Source: a virus (Duplodnaviria > Caudoviricetes). From it: a stretch of DNA of 64,000 nucleotides. Position 1 is the stretch's first letter; each line of letters opens with the position of its first letter. Positions 57,931-62,415 of this stretch are shown here, piece by piece. The stretch lies in the IMG/VR virus record IMGVR_UViG_3300031992_000011, one strand, 5' to 3'. Both the position numbers and the translations under genes were made by a program. The notes beneath the pieces were generated by a model. The model was not told the origin of the DNA. It did no database searches and saw only the letters and a program-made list of their open reading frames with translations.

Positions 57931-57987
57931 TGTTAACATTCTTTAACATATAAAATTTGCAGAAGTCAACTTTTTGTTGTACCTTTG
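57931..57987 (+). promoter_or_regulatory. tRNA-operon promoter with upstream TGTTAA-N6-TTAACA palindrome
   Basis: Palindrome 57931-57948, TTTG 57956, TACCTTTG 57980-57987. Confidence 0.8.
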
Positions 57988-58038: not shown

Positions 58039-58109
58039 GCGTCCATAGCACAGAGGCAGTGCACCGGCTTCCCAAGCCGGGGACGCCAGTTCGATTCTGG
58101 TTGGACGCT
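58039..58109 (+). tRNA. tRNA-Gly(CCC)
   Basis: Cloverleaf GCGTCCA/TGGACGC, loop TTCCCAA. Confidence 0.9.
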
Positions 58110-58116
58110 CAAGTAC

Positions 58117-58327
58117 TGCGAGTATAGACCACTTAGTAGTGACCGGTGTAAGCGCTTGGGTAGCTCGAGGCAATGTCCGAGCGTGCAGTCGTGGGGCAAC
58201 GTGCACCCTCAGACCGGTGAAACGTGTTGGTGCTTGTGAAGGCCCATACGAGGTGGCGCAACAGATACGGTTCCCGCGTGGGGAATATCCAAGCCCGTGA
58301 CAGCCGCCGCTCGTCAATTTACTCGCA
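58117..58327 (+). ncRNA. Unassigned approx. 210 nt structured RNA
   Basis: Terminal helix TGCGAGTA/TACTCGCA, long-range GCTTGGGTA/TATCCAAGC, several internal hairpins. Confidence 0.6.
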
Positions 58328-58330
58328 TAT

Positions 58331-58405
58331 AGGGAAGTGGCTCAGTCCGGTTAGAGCGCTTGCTTTGGGAGCAAGAGGCCGCAGGTTCGAATCCTGTTTT
58401 CCCTA
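58331..58405 (+). tRNA. tRNA-Pro(TGG)
   Basis: Cloverleaf, loop TTTGGGA. Confidence 0.9.
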
Positions 58406-58419
58406 CAAAAAAAAATAAC

Positions 58420-58493
58420 ACTCCAGTGGCGCAATTGGTCAGCGTGTCTGTCTTATACACAGTAGGTTGTAGGTTCAAGTCCTACCTGGAGTA
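58420..58493 (+). tRNA. tRNA-Ile(TAT)
   Basis: ACTCCAG/CTGGAGT, loop CTTATAC. Confidence 0.8.
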
Positions 58494-58517
58494 CATTTTT
58501 GAAAAACAATCAGCATT

Positions 58518-58736
58518 ATGCCGAAACTTAATCTAAATGAAGTACTGAATGATGACGATGTCATCAAGGCGTTGAACCCTAAAGAATGGGAGTTCAGGTG
58601 TGGCAGTTGTGACAACTTCTGTGACATCTTCGGGAGATATTCCGAGTTCAAAACCATTGAAAGATGCCCGTTCGAGGGGAAGGTGACGTGGGACACTGAT
58701 TGGAGAAAGATTGGCTGTAAGTGCTATTGGAACTAA
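58518..58736 (+). CDS. Small Cys-rich protein within tRNA array
   Basis: 72 aa, CGSCDNFC..C..CKC. Confidence 0.55.
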   Translation: MPKLNLNEVLNDDDVIKALNPKEWEFRCGSCDNFCDIFGRYSEFKTIERCPFEGKVTWDTDWRKIGCKCYWN

Positions 58737-58739
58737 AAT

Positions 58740-58813
58740 GGTCCTGTAACTCAGTTGGTCAGAGTGCCTGACTCATAATCAGGGAGTCGTAGGTTCAAGC
58801 CCTACCGGGACCA
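58740..58813 (+). tRNA. tRNA-CAT (elongator Met or Ile2)
   Basis: GGTCCTG/CGGGACC, loop CTCATAA. Confidence 0.85.
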
Positions 58814-58822
58814 CAATGCAAT

Positions 58823-58896
58823 TGCGGGGTGGAGCAGATGGTCAGCTCGTTTGGCTCATAACCAAAAGGTCGCAGGTCCGAGTCCTGCCCCCGCAA
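58823..58896 (+). tRNA. tRNA-Met(CAT), initiator-like
   Basis: TGCGGGG TG GAGC 5' end typical of fMet tRNAs, loop CTCATAA. Confidence 0.8.
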
Positions 58897-58960
58897 CAAC
58901 ACAGTCTGCCGATAAGAGATGAACACCTATTTATGTCTATAGCAGATATAGCATTGAAAT

Positions 58961-59689
58961 ATGAATAGGATAAGGCAAATCATCAACGAGGCAGTCCGAG
59001 AGACCTTGTTGTTTGAAGCGATCAAGTCAAGTTGGTTGAAAAGGTTCTTCGCCGAGCATGGAGGTGTGGACAGCACTATGCACAACGACTACTTGGGCGA
59101 CGCACAGGATGAGGATATCGAGGACGTGAAGGTTTTTCCTTCAAAGAAGGAAGCGTTTGAAATGGCGTGGAAACTGAGACGTGAGCACATAACCGGTTTT
59201 CGTAAAGTATATGTCGCCAAGGACGGCACGGCAGTTCTTGTCGTGTACAAGGATTCTGTAAAATCAAACCCGACATGGGGCGGAGAAGCGTCCGCAAAGA
59301 CAGCCGACAGGTATTGGAGAAACGGTGAAAGGTTCACTTCGTACAATCCTGAAACCGGTCAGAGAGTACCCGGATACCGTGACGACAGGGGCACCTACAC
59401 ATACAGTGACGGAAAGTCAAGCGAAGGTGCCGCCAGATTCGGCATAAGGAATTCGGACGATTACCGTAGACATGTGGCGTTCGTCAGAGATCAGAGGGCG
59501 AAGGCAAAACAGAACGGAAAAGAGGATGATTTCAACCGTTGGCGTGATGCAGAAGCCAAGAGAGTCAAAGACTACGCTGAAGAAAAGAAGAAGGAACGTG
59601 ATTGGCAGAGGGAATATTTCGGGCTCAGTGACCGTGAGCGAGAACGCAGACTGTCAAGACCTGCCCCATTGGACAAGCGTTTCAAATAA
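58961..59689 (+). CDS. Hypothetical protein with IRQIINEAVRE N-terminal motif
   Basis: 242 aa within tRNA array, TATTTA upstream. Confidence 0.75.
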   Translation: MNRIRQIINEAVRETLLFEAIKSSWLKRFFAEHGGVDSTMHNDYLGDAQDEDIEDVKVFPSKKEAFEMAWKLRREHITGFRKVYVAKDGTAVLVVYKDSVKSNPTWGGEASAKTADRYWRNGERFTSYNPETGQRVPGYRDDRGTYTYSDGKSSEGAARFGIRNSDDYRRHVAFVRDQRAKAKQNGKEDDFNRWRDAEAKRVKDYAEEKKKERDWQREYFGLSDRERERRLSRPAPLDKRFK

Positions 59690-59738
59690 CACGAATGCGT
59701 TAAACGGCCGCGCCGACATGTCAGTGCGGTCATTTTAT

Positions 59739-59810
59739 GCCCCCTTAGCACAGCGGTAGTGCAGTTCACTTGTAATGAACAGGTCGTTGGTTCGAATCCG
59801 ACAGGGGGCT
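59739..59810 (+). tRNA. tRNA-Thr(TGT)
   Basis: Cloverleaf, loop CTTGTAA. Confidence 0.9.
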
Positions 59811-59902
59811 CAACATAGCAAGGTAACAACAAGGCGCGACTCCCCCAACCGCGCCGGTAACCCGCACGTAACAGCCGATAGGGGCGGCGACCTTGCCGAT
59901 AC

Positions 59903-59974
59903 GCGGATGTAGCACAACGGTTCGTGCACCAGCCTTCCAAGCTGGGGATGACGGTTCGATTCCGTTCATCCGCT
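59903..59974 (+). tRNA. tRNA-Gly(TCC)
   Basis: Cloverleaf, loop CTTCCAA. Confidence 0.9.
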
Positions 59975-60103
59975 CAAAAAATGGGCTGAAATTTGTGGGC
60001 ATAAAGTTAAAACCTCAAGACGTTGAAAGCAGCAGTATAGGGACTGCTATTGGCGGTCAGATTAACCGTAGCCACATCTTGCAAGAGTTTCGGCCTTTAA
60101 TAT

Positions 60104-60181
60104 AGCGGAGTGGAGCAGAAGCAGCTCGTCAGGTTCATACCCTGAAGGTCGTCTCAAACGGTGCAAGTCCTACCTCCGCCA
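60104..60181 (+). tRNA. Aberrant initiator-like tRNA(CAT) with disrupted T stem
   Basis: AGCGGAG/CTCCGCC (1:72 mismatch), loop TTCATAC, extra CTCAAAC in T stem, T loop TGCAAGT. Confidence 0.55.
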
Positions 60182-60327
60182 CTAAAATATGGGATTCTAC
60201 ACAGAGTATTCTTTTAAGTAGATGCATATGCTTACTAGGATATTGGGTGGTATTAGATTTTGAAACTGCAGATAATCAAAATCTATTAGGAGGTTCGAGC
60301 CATCTGTTTCCCACAAAATTCAAAAAT

Positions 60328-60401
60328 GGTGCGTTAGTTCAGTTGGTTAGAATGCCTGCCTGTCACGCAGGAGGTCACGGGTCCGAGTCCCGTACGCACC
60401 G
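60328..60401 (+). tRNA. tRNA-Asp(GTC)
   Basis: Cloverleaf, loop CTGTCAC. Confidence 0.9.
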
Positions 60402-60455
60402 CTTCTTGATTGTTTGAATGAGTGGTTTGGGTCGTGTGAGCGCCCAGACCTTTTT

Positions 60456-60529
60456 GCTCCCTTAGCTCAGTTGGATAGAGCGTGAGGTTCCTAACCCCAA
60501 GGTCATGTGTTCGAGCCACATAGGGAGTA
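60456..60529 (+). tRNA. tRNA-Arg(CCT)
   Basis: Cloverleaf, loop TTCCTAA. Confidence 0.85.
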
Positions 60530-60533
60530 CTAT

Positions 60534-60619
60534 GGATGGGTGGCAGAGTTGGTCGATTGCACCGGTCTTGAAAACCGGCGGCCCGCAAGGGTCCGGGGGT
60601 TCGAATCCCTCCTCATCCG
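60534..60619 (+). tRNA. tRNA-Ser(TGA)
   Basis: Long variable arm, loop CTTGAAA. Confidence 0.9.
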
Positions 60620-60626
60620 CATAACA

Positions 60627-60710
60627 GCGACAGTGGCGGAACTGGTAGACGCGCCACCTTGAGGGGGTGGTGGGCACACGCCCGTGAAGGTTCGAGTCCT
60701 TTCTGTCGCA
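60627..60710 (+). tRNA. tRNA-Leu(GAG)
   Basis: Long variable arm, loop TTGAGGG. Confidence 0.9.
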
Positions 60711-60754
60711 CAGGCCGGCCGCGAGACGCGCAACGGTCCGTGGCATGGGCATTT

Positions 60755-60828
60755 GCTGCCATCGTCTAATTGGTTAGGACGTCGCCCTTTCACGGCGGAG
60801 ATTACGGGTTCGAGTCCCGTTGGCAGTA
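60755..60828 (+). tRNA. tRNA-Glu(TTC)
   Basis: Cloverleaf, loop CTTTCAC. Confidence 0.9.
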
Positions 60829-60832
60829 CAAC

Positions 60833-60904
60833 GACTCCGTAACTCAGTGGTAGAGTATCGCACTTTTAATGCGAGAGTCGTGGGTTCAAGTCCCACCGGG
60901 GTCA
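60833..60904 (+). tRNA. tRNA-Lys(TTT)
   Basis: Cloverleaf, loop CTTTTAA. Confidence 0.9.
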
Positions 60905-60918
60905 CGAACGCGACAAGA

Positions 60919-60991
60919 GGGCCGCTAGCTCAGATGGTAGAGCGCTACATTCGCATTGTAGAGGTCACCGGTTCGAATCCGGTGCGGTCCA
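60919..60991 (+). tRNA. tRNA-Ala(CGC)
   Basis: G3:U70 pair, loop TTCGCAT. Confidence 0.9.
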
Positions 60992-61138
60992 CAGACAGAG
61001 CGTGTCGCGAACACGCACGCCATCGCACGAGAGGATTGGGGATGGTAACCCCGGATTGTGGAGGTCGTCTAACCAACGATAGAAGTGGCCGTCCGGTACA
61101 TAATCAACGGACAAACATCGTGACGCTTGGCATGTCAT

Positions 61139-61210
61139 GGGGTGATAGCTCAACGGTAGAGCAATTGGCTGTTAACCAATAGGCTGCAGGTTCGAATCCT
61201 GCTCACCCCG
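61139..61210 (+). tRNA. tRNA-Asn(GTT)
   Basis: Cloverleaf, loop CTGTTAA. Confidence 0.9.
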
Positions 61211-61284
61211 CAACTCAGAAGAACGGGCGAATCGCCCTGACAATGGGGATTGAACGGCACCGCCAAAAGTGGTGCCTTTTGCCG

Positions 61285-61368
61285 GGGAGCGTAACCGGTA
61301 ATTGGTAGCCGCACGGACTGTAAATCCGTTCCTTAATTGGACTGGTCGTTCGAGTCGACCCGCTCCCA
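61285..61368 (+). tRNA. tRNA-Tyr(GTA)
   Basis: Variable arm, loop CTGTAAA. Confidence 0.85.
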
Positions 61369-61379
61369 CAATGACTGTT

Positions 61380-61453
61380 CTTCCTGTAGCTCAACTGAAT
61401 AGAGCAATGCACTTCTAATGCATAGGTTCTGGGTTTGAGTCCCAGCGGGAAGA
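61380..61453 (+). tRNA. tRNA-Arg(TCT)
   Basis: Cloverleaf, loop CTTCTAA. Confidence 0.85.
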
Positions 61454-61462
61454 CTAATAACA

Positions 61463-61535
61463 AGGCGGTTAGCTCAGTTGGTAGAGTGGCGGTCTCCAAA
61501 ACCGCAGGTCGCACGTTCGAGCCGTGCACCGCCTG
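61463..61535 (+). tRNA. tRNA-Trp(CCA)
   Basis: Cloverleaf, loop CTCCAAA. Confidence 0.9.
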
Positions 61536-61543
61536 CAAAAAAA

Positions 61544-61633
61544 GGAAGCATACCCAAGTTGGTGAAGGGGGCGGCTTGCTAAGCCGCTAGGCCTCGGCGA
61601 CGGGGCGCGGAGGTTCGAGTCCTCCTGCTTCCG
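61544..61633 (+). tRNA. tRNA-Ser(GCT)
   Basis: Long variable arm, loop TTGCTAA. Confidence 0.9.
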
Positions 61634-61640
61634 CACAAAC

Positions 61641-61713
61641 AGGGTAGTAGCGCAGTTGGTAGCGCGCTACGTTCGGGACGTAGAGGTCGCAGGTTCGAAT
61701 CCTGTCTACCCTA
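61641..61713 (+). tRNA. tRNA-Pro(CGG)
   Basis: Cloverleaf, loop TTCGGGA. Confidence 0.9.
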
Positions 61714-61719
61714 CTTGAA

Positions 61720-61776
61720 TGTTAACAATTATTAACATGAAAAATTTGCAAGGTATATTTTTTTGTCGTACCTTTG
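61720..61776 (+). promoter_or_regulatory. Promoter of the ncRNA array with TGTTAA-N6-TTAACA palindrome
   Basis: Palindrome 61720-61737, TTTG 61745, TACCTTTG 61769-61776. Confidence 0.8.
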
Positions 61777-61782
61777 CACTTG

Positions 61783-61870
61783 AAAACAATGGTGAGTGAC
61801 AGGGTTACTTCGCATACAAACTGTTACAAGATTAAAAAGCAACGAACCCTTCGCATATCTTCCTTGTTTT
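61783..61870 (+). ncRNA. GTGAC/TACTTCG scaffold RNA 1 (no tRNA cargo)
   Basis: AAAACAA/TTGTTTT outer helix, AGTGAC, AGGGTT/AACCCT inner helix, TACTTCG. Confidence 0.65.
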
Positions 61871-61890
61871 TGTTCTTTGACATTCTTAAA

Positions 61891-62025
61891 ATGTGTGCAG
61901 TGACTGTGGCGGTTACTTCGTTGATTAGCTCATTTGGTAGAGCATAAGTTTATGGTACTTAGGGTAGATGGTTCGATTCCATCATCACAAAAGATTGTTT
62001 GCCGCCGCAAAATTTTCTCACACAT
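61891..62025 (+). ncRNA. Scaffold RNA 2 with nested tRNA-like body (anticodon ATG)
   Basis: ATGTGTG/CACACAT, AGTGAC, TGTGGCGG/CCGCCGCA, TACTTCG, D/AC/T arms 61926-61983. Confidence 0.7.
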
Positions 62026-62033
62026 AACTCATA

Positions 62034-62166
62034 TTCCGCATAGTGACGGGCGGTGTTACTTCGAATTATTTAGCGCAGTGGTTAGCGCATCACACTTTTA
62101 ATGCGAGAGTCGCCGGTTCGATTCCGGCAATGATTCTTTAAAAGCACCCCCATTTTTCTTGCGGAA
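62034..62166 (+). ncRNA. Scaffold RNA 3 with nested tRNA-Lys(TTT)-like body
   Basis: TTCCGCA/TGCGGAA, AGTGAC, GGGCGGTGT/GCACCCCC, TACTTCG, cloverleaf 62063-62136. Confidence 0.72.
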
Positions 62167-62173
62167 AAGCACA

Positions 62174-62298
62174 ACCGGTTGTGACGTATCTCGGTTACTT
62201 CGATACGTTGGTTCGAGTCCAACTTTGTCCGCCATACAATTGGACGAATAGTCAAGTGGTTAAGACAGAATTCTTTACCGAGGCGAGTTTCCACCGGT
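62174..62298 (+). ncRNA. Scaffold RNA 4 with circularly permuted tRNA (YrlA-like Y RNA architecture)
   Basis: ACCGGT/ACCGGT, GTGAC, TCTCGGT/ACCGAGG, TACTTCG, then T arm, closed acceptor stem, D arm. Confidence 0.72.
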
Positions 62299-62415
62299 AC
62301 AAAAAACGGTCTGCTTCAATGTAGATGGATTTTGTAGATGGTTTAACGTGCGGTGCGCTGTATATCAGTGTGCCGCTTTTTTGTTTGAGTATAAAAAGAC
62401 AACACAAAAAAAATA

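What the first reader, a model, noticed from the sequence alone, without database searches (positions are those of the whole stretch)
62034..62166. tRNA-Lys(UUU) body embedded in the scaffold: candidate anticodon-nuclease decoy
Seen: a cloverleaf at 62063-62136 whose anticodon/variable segment (TCACACTTTTAATGCGAGAGTCG) is one base from that of the genuine tRNA-Lys(TTT) at 60833 (TCGCACTTTTAATGCGAGAGTCG). It has an AU-rich acceptor stem, no CCA, and ends locked in the scaffold. Established: tRNA-Lys(UUU) is the target of antiphage nucleases PrrC and PARIS AriB. Inference: a non-chargeable decoy or repair substrate, not a translation tRNA.
Basis: partly seen in the sequence, partly recalled or inferred. 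Interest (0 to 1): 0.7.

Follow-up and report, generated by a model that had tools for sequence, protein, structure and literature searches.

The report
Phage Y RNA carrying tRNA-Lys body
This "extra tRNA-Lys" is one of four small RNAs of a jumbo phage that share a docking handle for the phage's own Ro60 protein and carry tRNA-shaped cargo; it is probably not used in translation, and a role as bait for tRNA-cutting defences is plausible but unproven, with no link to PrrC or PARIS in particular.

Summary
Observation confirmed. 62034-62166 is unit 3 of a four-unit array (about 61782-62298) with its own Bacteroidota-type promoter and terminator, in a 330-kb phage contig. The scaffold is a Y-RNA-type handle. 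It covaries across 24 homologues, and 87 of 89 viral loci carrying it have a same-strand Ro60/TROVE gene (many from one clade). This phage encodes Ro60 on the same contig. Unlike classic YrlA (permuted, no anticodon), the cargo is a full tRNA in normal order with an anticodon loop. This design recurs in about 27 lineages, nearly all phage, and Lys is the commonest anticodon displayed.

'No CCA' is uninformative: none of the 20 neighbouring tRNA genes checked encodes CCA. The single difference from the phage's tRNA-Lys breaks an anticodon-stem pair. The arm copies the phage's tRNA, not the host's. Nothing points to PrrC or PARIS. A competitive-inhibitor role was already proposed for YrlA.

Verdict: new variant of a known kind. 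Y RNA identity about 0.85; bait role about 0.4. The scan noted this family before on other DNA.

The parts
61745..61776 (+). Bacteroidota-type promoter of the array (-33 TTTG at 61745-61748, -7 TACCTTTG at 61769-61776)
   Evidence: Sequence; promoter type from established knowledge; conserved in the second strain
61782..61871 (+). Unit 1: Y-type handle with a short variable loop and no tRNA cargo
   Evidence: Motif at 61804; model R1 hit of 36.9 bits; the loop varies between strains while the handle is kept
61890..62026 (+). Unit 2: handle plus normal-order tRNA cargo with a 4-bp acceptor; anticodon ATG here, TTG (Gln) in the second strain
   Evidence: Rfam tRNA 44.9 bits
62034..62063 (+). Unit 3, 5' half of the handle: terminal stem 62034-62040, GTGAC bulge 62043-62047 (likely Ro60 contact), inner stem 62048-62056, GTTACTTCG 62055-62063
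   Evidence: Fold; covariation; role inferred from Chen 2014 (PMC4201824) and PMC12135203
62064..62136 (+). Unit 3 cargo: normal-order tRNA-Lys(UUU) body. Acceptor 62064-62070/62129-62135 (no G-C pair), D arm 62073-62088, anticodon arm 62090-62106 (anticodon 62097-62099; A29-C41 mismatch at 62092/62104), T arm 62112-62128, C73 at 62136
62137..62166 (+). Unit 3, 3' half of the handle: linker, inner-stem strand 62144-62151, pyrimidine bulge 62152-62159, terminal-stem strand 62160-62166
   Evidence: Fold; covariation
62174..62298 (+). Unit 4: handle plus permuted cargo (T arm, closed acceptor, D arm), the classic YrlA layout
   Evidence: compensatory T-A to C-G change in the acceptor hairpin of the second strain
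62350..62386 (+). Intrinsic terminator closing the array
   Evidence: 11-bp stem plus T run
60833..60905 (+). The phage's genuine tRNA-Lys(UUU), likely donor of the 24-nt anticodon/variable segment (60857-60880)
   Evidence: Rfam 73.1 bits

Best explanation
A phage Y RNA. The four units are transcribed from their own promoter and probably cut into single RNAs (inferred). The handle binds the phage's Ro60/Rsr protein, encoded elsewhere on the same contig (gene shown; binding inferred from genomic linkage and from Y-RNA biochemistry). The handle clamps both ends of a tRNA-shaped module, so it is not matured or charged (inferred from anatomy). The module presents a tRNA elbow and a Lys(UUU)-type anticodon arm on the Ro60 ring as bait for host proteins that recognise tRNA, most plausibly tRNA-cutting defence nucleases, and so spares the phage's and host's working tRNAs (inferred). 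In this phage the Lys arm came by local copying from the neighbouring tRNA-Lys gene (the match is shown; the copying event is inferred). The G29A mismatch may make it a bound-but-poorly-cut competitor rather than a substrate (speculative). Odds: Y RNA identity about 0.85; bait function given that, about 0.45.
For: Handle and cloverleaf covary: 22 of 26 pairs have changes on both sides, 92.9% of cells are paired, 0 of 500 shuffles reach it and slid controls give 35-51%. A model built without L422/L424 finds their units at 100-107 bits; ordinary tRNAs score at most 61.5. 87 of 89 viral loci with handle plus T arm and at least 1.5 kb downstream have a same-strand TROVE gene (many are one gut-phage clade). 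Five of five phage records tested encode TROVE. P0352 (545 aa, TROVE) shares the 330,287-bp longest contig and the source set with two of this phage's proteins, and the second strain has both the array and rsr in one sample. Permuted sister units match the YrlA model at 31-45 bits. Anticodon loops are displayed in three layouts; Lys makes up 11 of 70 vs 22 of 530 phage tRNAs (Fisher p 6e-4, post hoc). Lys(UUU) loops stay while the stems swap in several lineages. In one clade the Tyr GUA triplet survives three different arms, two of which have lost U33. Handle-plus-D-arm units were not found in 301 Bacteroidales genomes (the one hit lacks a T arm), so the design is phage-biased. Hughes 2020 (PMC7790460) proposed YrlA as a competitive inhibitor of an anticodon nuclease.
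Against: The strict GNCGAAN0-1G Ro60 motif is absent from this unit and present in only 2 of 131 handles. rsr is not adjacent to the array in this phage. The anticodon stem of this copy is predicted broken, with the UUU drawn into an alternative hairpin (the model ignores modifications and tertiary structure). The arm copies the phage's tRNA, not host-type Lys arms; such copying was seen in none of the ten other cargos that could be compared. Similar-looking units in other phages show different anticodons (UCA, UGG, UAG, GUG, GCU), which also fits weak constraint.
Confidence: 0.4

Rival explanations
1. It is a Y RNA, but the cargo is only a stable elbow-shaped tether that recruits PNPase or RNA-repair enzymes to Rsr (RYPER-like). 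The anticodon is a passenger inherited from whichever tRNA donated the module.
For: This is the established function of Yrn1 and of Thermus phage Yrl1/2 (PMC4201824, PMC12135203). D and T arms are the most conserved parts. Anticodons vary among similar units. About 30 lineages have T-arm cargo with no anticodon arm. The A29-C41 mismatch is tolerated in two strains.
Against: Anticodon stems keep 96.7% pairing with compensatory changes in all five pairs. Loops stay 7 nt and mostly keep U33. Anticodon use is skewed towards Lys and Gln, and GUA is kept through three arm changes.
Confidence: 0.33
2. It is a protected pre-tRNA: RNase P and a 3' nuclease release the 7-bp-acceptor module, CCA is added, and it works as a reserve or cleavage-resistant tRNA-Lys.
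For: The acceptor has the full 7 bp and the Rfam score is 63.9 bits. No tRNA gene checked here encodes CCA. M. smegmatis YrlA with a 7-bp acceptor is cut by RNase P and gains CCA (PMC4201824). Cleavage-resistant phage tRNA-Lys variants are known from T5.
Against: No G-C pair in the acceptor, C73 instead of A73 (A73 as a LysRS identity element is from established knowledge), no C74, and a predicted broken anticodon stem. Most homologous cargos have only 3-6-bp acceptors. A normal tRNA-Lys(UUU) gene is already present at 60833.
Confidence: 0.08
3. A Y-RNA array in decay after separation from rsr; the Lys arm is an accidental gene-conversion tract with no function.
For: rsr lies far away; the anticodon stem has a mismatch; unit 2 has a non-standard ATG anticodon in this strain.
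Against: Promoter and terminator are intact. The cargo is 100% identical between strains while flanks differ. Unit 4 has a compensatory pair change, and unit 2 is TTG in the other strain. The rsr frame is full length, and the strain's copy keeps a DxSxS motif.
Confidence: 0.08
4. The cargo sequesters or redirects host tRNA-handling enzymes other than nucleases (LysRS, U34/A37 modification enzymes) or acts as an uncharged-tRNA-like signal.
For: The enriched anticodons (UUU, UUG, UUC: 17/70 vs 63/530) are the U34-thiolated set (established knowledge). YrlA is modified by TruB and DusA.
Against: No clear benefit to a phage that needs translation; no direct evidence.
Confidence: 0.08

Closest known systems
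YrlA, bacterial and phage Y RNA (Rfam RF02553; Chen et al. 2014 PMC4201824; Wang et al. 2018, 10.1101/312249)
   Same: Stem-bulge-stem handle with a YUAY-like element next to a tRNA-like module; linkage to rsr; several Y RNAs per locus. Unit 4 and many sister units have the YrlA order and score 31-45 bits on RF02553.
   Different: YrlA is permuted, has a closed acceptor and lacks an anticodon loop. Unit 3 is in normal tRNA order, joined at the acceptor ends, with a full anticodon arm. The handle reads GTGAC, not GNCGAA. There is no RF02553 match in the window. rsr is unlinked here.
Deinococcus radiodurans Yrn1
   Same: D and T arms in the non-YrlA orientation with a stem-loop in the anticodon position, on a Ro60-binding stem.
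   Different: Yrn1 has a 6-nt loop, no V arm and a doubtful D arm. Unit 3 is a near-complete tRNA that ARAGORN and Rfam call as tRNA-Lys.
Thermus phage phiLo Ro60 with Yrl1/Yrl2 (PMC12135203)
   Same: Phage-encoded Ro60 with several Y-like RNAs; stem-bulge-stem binding site; proposed counter-defence role.
   Different: Those RNAs are short CGAA hairpins; 'anticodon' does not occur in the paper. The shown partner is host PNPase.
b7a-tRNA (Burroughs and Aravind 2016, known to me only through 10.1101/312249)
   Same: A predicted ncRNA strongly resembling a real tRNA, in RNA-repair neighbourhoods and sometimes next to Rsr.
   Different: Described next to Band-7 and RtcB genes. I could not read the paper, so overlap with this class is unresolved.
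T5 tRNA-Lys(UUU) against PARIS AriB (PMC11464382; 10.1101/2025.02.04.636281)
   Same: A phage Lys(UUU) sequence with changes near positions 39-41; competition with AriB is mentioned as a possibility.
   Different: The T5 RNA is a working, cleavage-resistant tRNA, not a clamped mimic on a protein scaffold.

Membership tests
Bacterial/phage Y RNA (broad) | 5' and 3' ends pair into a stem-bulge-stem handle | tested here: met
Bacterial/phage Y RNA (broad) | Genome encodes a Ro60/Rsr (TROVE) protein | tested here: met
   P0352 shares the 330,287-bp contig length and sources with this phage's proteins; rsr of the second strain read directly
Bacterial/phage Y RNA (broad) | Family is encoded next to rsr on the same strand | tested here: met
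   87 of 89 homologous loci; not adjacent in this phage
Bacterial/phage Y RNA (broad) | Physically bound by Ro60/Rsr; expressed as a discrete RNA | not testable with these tools
YrlA (RF02553) | Score at or above the gathering cut-off (69 bits) | tested here: not met
   No hit in the window; sister permuted units 31-45 bits
YrlA (RF02553) | Permuted order T arm, closed acceptor, D arm; no anticodon loop | tested here: not met
   Unit 3 is in normal order with an anticodon loop; unit 4 does meet it
YrlA (RF02553) | GNCGAAN0-1G motif near the 5' end | tested here: not met
   GTGAC here; strict motif in 2 of 131 handles, relaxed GYRA in 92 of 131
Translating tRNA-Lys(UUU) | Cloverleaf with the invariant D- and T-loop bases and a UUU anticodon | tested here: met
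Translating tRNA-Lys(UUU) | Stable acceptor with A73 and a free 3' end; intact anticodon stem | tested here: not met
   No G-C pair, C73, clamped ends, A29-C41 mismatch
Translating tRNA-Lys(UUU) | Matured and aminoacylated in vivo | not testable with these tools
   Needs an experiment
Substrate or decoy of PARIS AriB or PrrC | Carries the host-type recognition site and is bound or cut | tested here: inconclusive
   Has U39 but C41, the site of a minor AriB target; differs from host-type arms; presence of these systems in the host not tested
b7a-tRNA | Match to the published description; Band-7/RtcB neighbourhood | not testable with these tools
   Paper not held

The most novel reading that the evidence does not exclude
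Phages use Ro60 as a platform for an exchangeable panel of clamped, non-translating tRNA baits. Each handle-tagged RNA shows a chosen anticodon, can be re-programmed by copying from a neighbouring tRNA gene as seen here, and neutralises or reports host tRNA-cutting defences. This would be an RNA-based, programmable anti-defence system and would give bacterial-type Y RNAs a concrete function.
Probability: 0.25. Interest if true: 0.85.

Novelty: new variant of a known kind. Interest (0 to 1): 0.5.

Why it matters
The function of bacterial and phage Y RNAs, and the partner of their tRNA-like domain, are long-standing open questions. Units like this one keep a whole anticodon arm, differ mainly in that arm, and sit in a compact operon with its own promoter. 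That makes the 'nuclease competitor' and 'tether' ideas directly testable by loop swaps. In practice, tRNA finders call these units ordinary tRNAs, which inflates phage tRNA counts and hides the class.

Tried and rejected
No whole genome is held for the window. Related-locus searches with the downstream FtsH-like gene found nothing in viral contigs. Relatives found through that gene have tRNA clusters but no array at that position. Metagenome records could not be searched by handle. Look-ups of one window protein and of P0352 by identity returned nothing, so the Rsr is placed on this contig by shared contig length and sources, and by the second strain, not by reading the DNA. Burroughs and Aravind 2016 and Sim 2020 are not held. 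BLAST against annotated phages gave only generic tRNA matches. The genome-contig pattern scan was mostly chance hits upstream of ordinary tRNAs. Literature searches found no paper on anticodon-bearing Y RNAs or tRNA-mimic decoys of anticodon nucleases; the library is incomplete. Rejected: assembly artefact; 'no CCA' as evidence; copying of the phage's own tRNA as a general rule. A formal test for enrichment of 'known nuclease targets' was not run, because the published targets cover most tRNAs. No complex or structure prediction was run: the question is RNA-protein binding.

Full report
Setting. The window comes from a phage contig of 330,287 bp with Bacteroidota-type promoters (promoter type from established knowledge). 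A tRNA cluster runs from 58039 to 61714. After it come a promoter (61745-61776), four repeats of GTTACTTCG at 61804, 61912, 62055 and 62194, and a terminator at 62350. The finding is the third repeat unit.

Observation. The cloverleaf is real: ARAGORN calls tRNA-Lys(TTT), and Rfam gives 63.9 bits against 73.1 for the 60833 gene. The two share 24 nt with one mismatch. The acceptor has 7 pairs and none is G-C, while all 20 neighbouring tRNA genes checked have 3-6. N73 is C. Both ends run on into a stem-bulge-stem that closes the 133-nt unit (z -3.55). The array is identical in two JGI assemblies, and the cargo is identical in a second strain. Two points were misread. None of the 20 tRNA genes encodes CCA, so its absence says nothing; all 20 do have C74, which the cargo lacks. 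And the single difference, G29A, is an A29-C41 mismatch that lowers predicted anticodon-stem pairing to about 0.01 from 0.77-0.89. That model ignores base modification and tertiary folding.

What the scaffold is. Pattern scans found the same scaffold in many viral contigs. The reading frames just downstream are TROVE/Ro60 proteins. Of 89 loci with handle, T arm and at least 1.5 kb downstream, 87 have a same-strand TROVE gene. Many of these belong to one gut-phage clade, but the linkage also holds across unrelated sequences, and five of five phage records tested encode TROVE. In 24 normal-order units, 22 of 26 consensus pairs show changes on both sides, in handle and cloverleaf alike, well above shuffled and slid controls. 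A model from that alignment finds new units in two related jumbo phages at 100-107 bits; ordinary tRNAs score at most 61.5. The window has no TROVE gene. However, P0352 (545 aa, TROVE) has the same 330,287-bp longest contig and source set as two of this phage's proteins, and the second strain yields both the array and an rsr gene from one sample. Permuted sister units match the YrlA model at 31-45 bits, below the 69-bit cut-off. I conclude that these are Y-type RNAs (about 0.85), outside the Rfam YrlA family.

What is different. Published YrlA is permuted, has a closed acceptor and lacks an anticodon loop (10.1101/312249). Unit 4 has that layout. Units 2 and 3 instead hold a tRNA in normal order, clamped at the acceptor ends. 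My heuristic parser, with sequences clustered at 82% similarity and the Lys-specific scan left out, found 70 anticodon-bearing lineages in three layouts: 27 normal order, 35 with the anticodon arm first, 8 with it last. About 30 further lineages have no anticodon arm. Lys is the commonest displayed anticodon: 11 of 70, against 22 of 530 ordinary phage tRNAs (p 6e-4). The test is post hoc, lineages are not independent, and a few A/U-rich arms are ambiguous in register. Lys(UUU) cargo recurs in several lineages with different, paired stems around a constant loop. Two related jumbo phages show Lys(UUU) in a different layout. In one clade the GUA triplet persists through three arm sequences, two without U33. 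Acceptors of these cargos are mostly 3-6 bp and A/U-rich. No such unit was found in 301 Bacteroidales genomes; the one pattern hit lacks a T arm. The handle itself does occur before some bacterial rsr genes.

Origin of the Lys arm. The 16/17 match to the phage's own tRNA-Lys is peculiar to this phage. In ten other cargos the best same-anticodon match in the same locus was 4-10 of 17, or there was none. Host-type Lys(UUU) arms have other stems. A similar unit in two related phages carries a Pro(UGG)-type arm (orthology is not established). Local copying from the gene 1.2 kb upstream is the simplest reading.

How it most likely works. Shown: operon, handle, covariation, linkage to Ro60, and anticodon display across the family. 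Inferred: expression, processing into units, Rsr binding, lack of charging, and the partner of the cargo. I favour bait for tRNA-recognising host proteins, most plausibly defence nucleases (0.4 overall), narrowly over a generic tether for PNPase or repair enzymes (0.33). The case for bait is the conservation of anticodon arms and the Lys/Gln bias. The case against is this copy's broken stem, its phage-type rather than host-type sequence, and the free change of anticodon between similar units. Nothing singles out PrrC or PARIS. The cargo has C41, which reduces cleavage by E. coli-type AriB, and I did not test whether the host has these systems. Other scan notes report RNA healing and sealing genes downstream; I saw only an RlaP-family gene, in the second strain.

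Novelty. Phage Ro60 with Y-like RNAs is known (PMC4201824, PMC12135203, PMC7824862), and a competitive-inhibitor role was proposed for YrlA (PMC7790460). Yrn1 is a loose precedent for the orientation. I found no paper on Y RNAs that carry a complete normal-order tRNA with an anticodon loop, but the b7a-tRNA paper could not be read and may overlap. The scan has noted the same TACTTC scaffold arrays in other phages. Verdict: new variant of a known kind, interest 0.5.

Noticed in passing
window 61890-62026; L425:1626-1745: Unit 2's odd ATG anticodon is a single-base variant: the second strain has TTG (Gln), as do several other lineages. ATG-type loops also occur in permuted units of L001, L065 and L075.
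   Followed up: yes
window 58039-61714: None of 20 tRNA genes checked encodes CCA, yet all 20 are followed by C at position 74.
   Followed up: partly
window 57931-57961 and 61720-61750: A 31-nt repeat with a TGTTAA...TTAACA palindrome lies just upstream of both RNA-operon promoters; possible shared regulator site.
   Followed up: no
window 60104-60181 and 60190-60313: A weakly scoring tRNA-like element (Rfam 31.5 bits, missed by ARAGORN) and an uncalled tRNA-like element with an insertion, inside the cluster.
   Followed up: no
window 58120-58330: About 200 nt of G+C-rich non-coding sequence between tRNA-Gly and tRNA-Pro with no Rfam hit.
   Followed up: no
L425:271-945 and L425:2542-3561: The second strain has two inserted genes without Pfam hits, one inside the tRNA cluster and one just after the 102-aa gene that follows the array.
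   Followed up: partly
L002 clade (for example L002:1262-1670): A common gut-phage clade has three units directly upstream of rsr: one permuted, one Tyr(GUA) and one Lys(UUU). Rare alleles switch to GCA, GTT or TTC. A good test system.
   Followed up: partly
L422:16345-21477; L424:17582-21527: In related jumbo phages the units are scattered through the tRNA cluster 5-10 kb downstream of rsr; one permuted unit carries a Lys(UUU) arm after the D arm.
   Followed up: partly
L107:1622 and L290: Cargos displaying a UCA anticodon (Sec/opal type) without a Sec-type body.
   Followed up: no
window 63022 onward (L194:5883-7991): The gene cut by the window end is a 702-aa AAA/peptidase M41 (FtsH-like) protein, followed by DnaJ, NUDIX, IF3 and sigma-70 genes.
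   Followed up: partly
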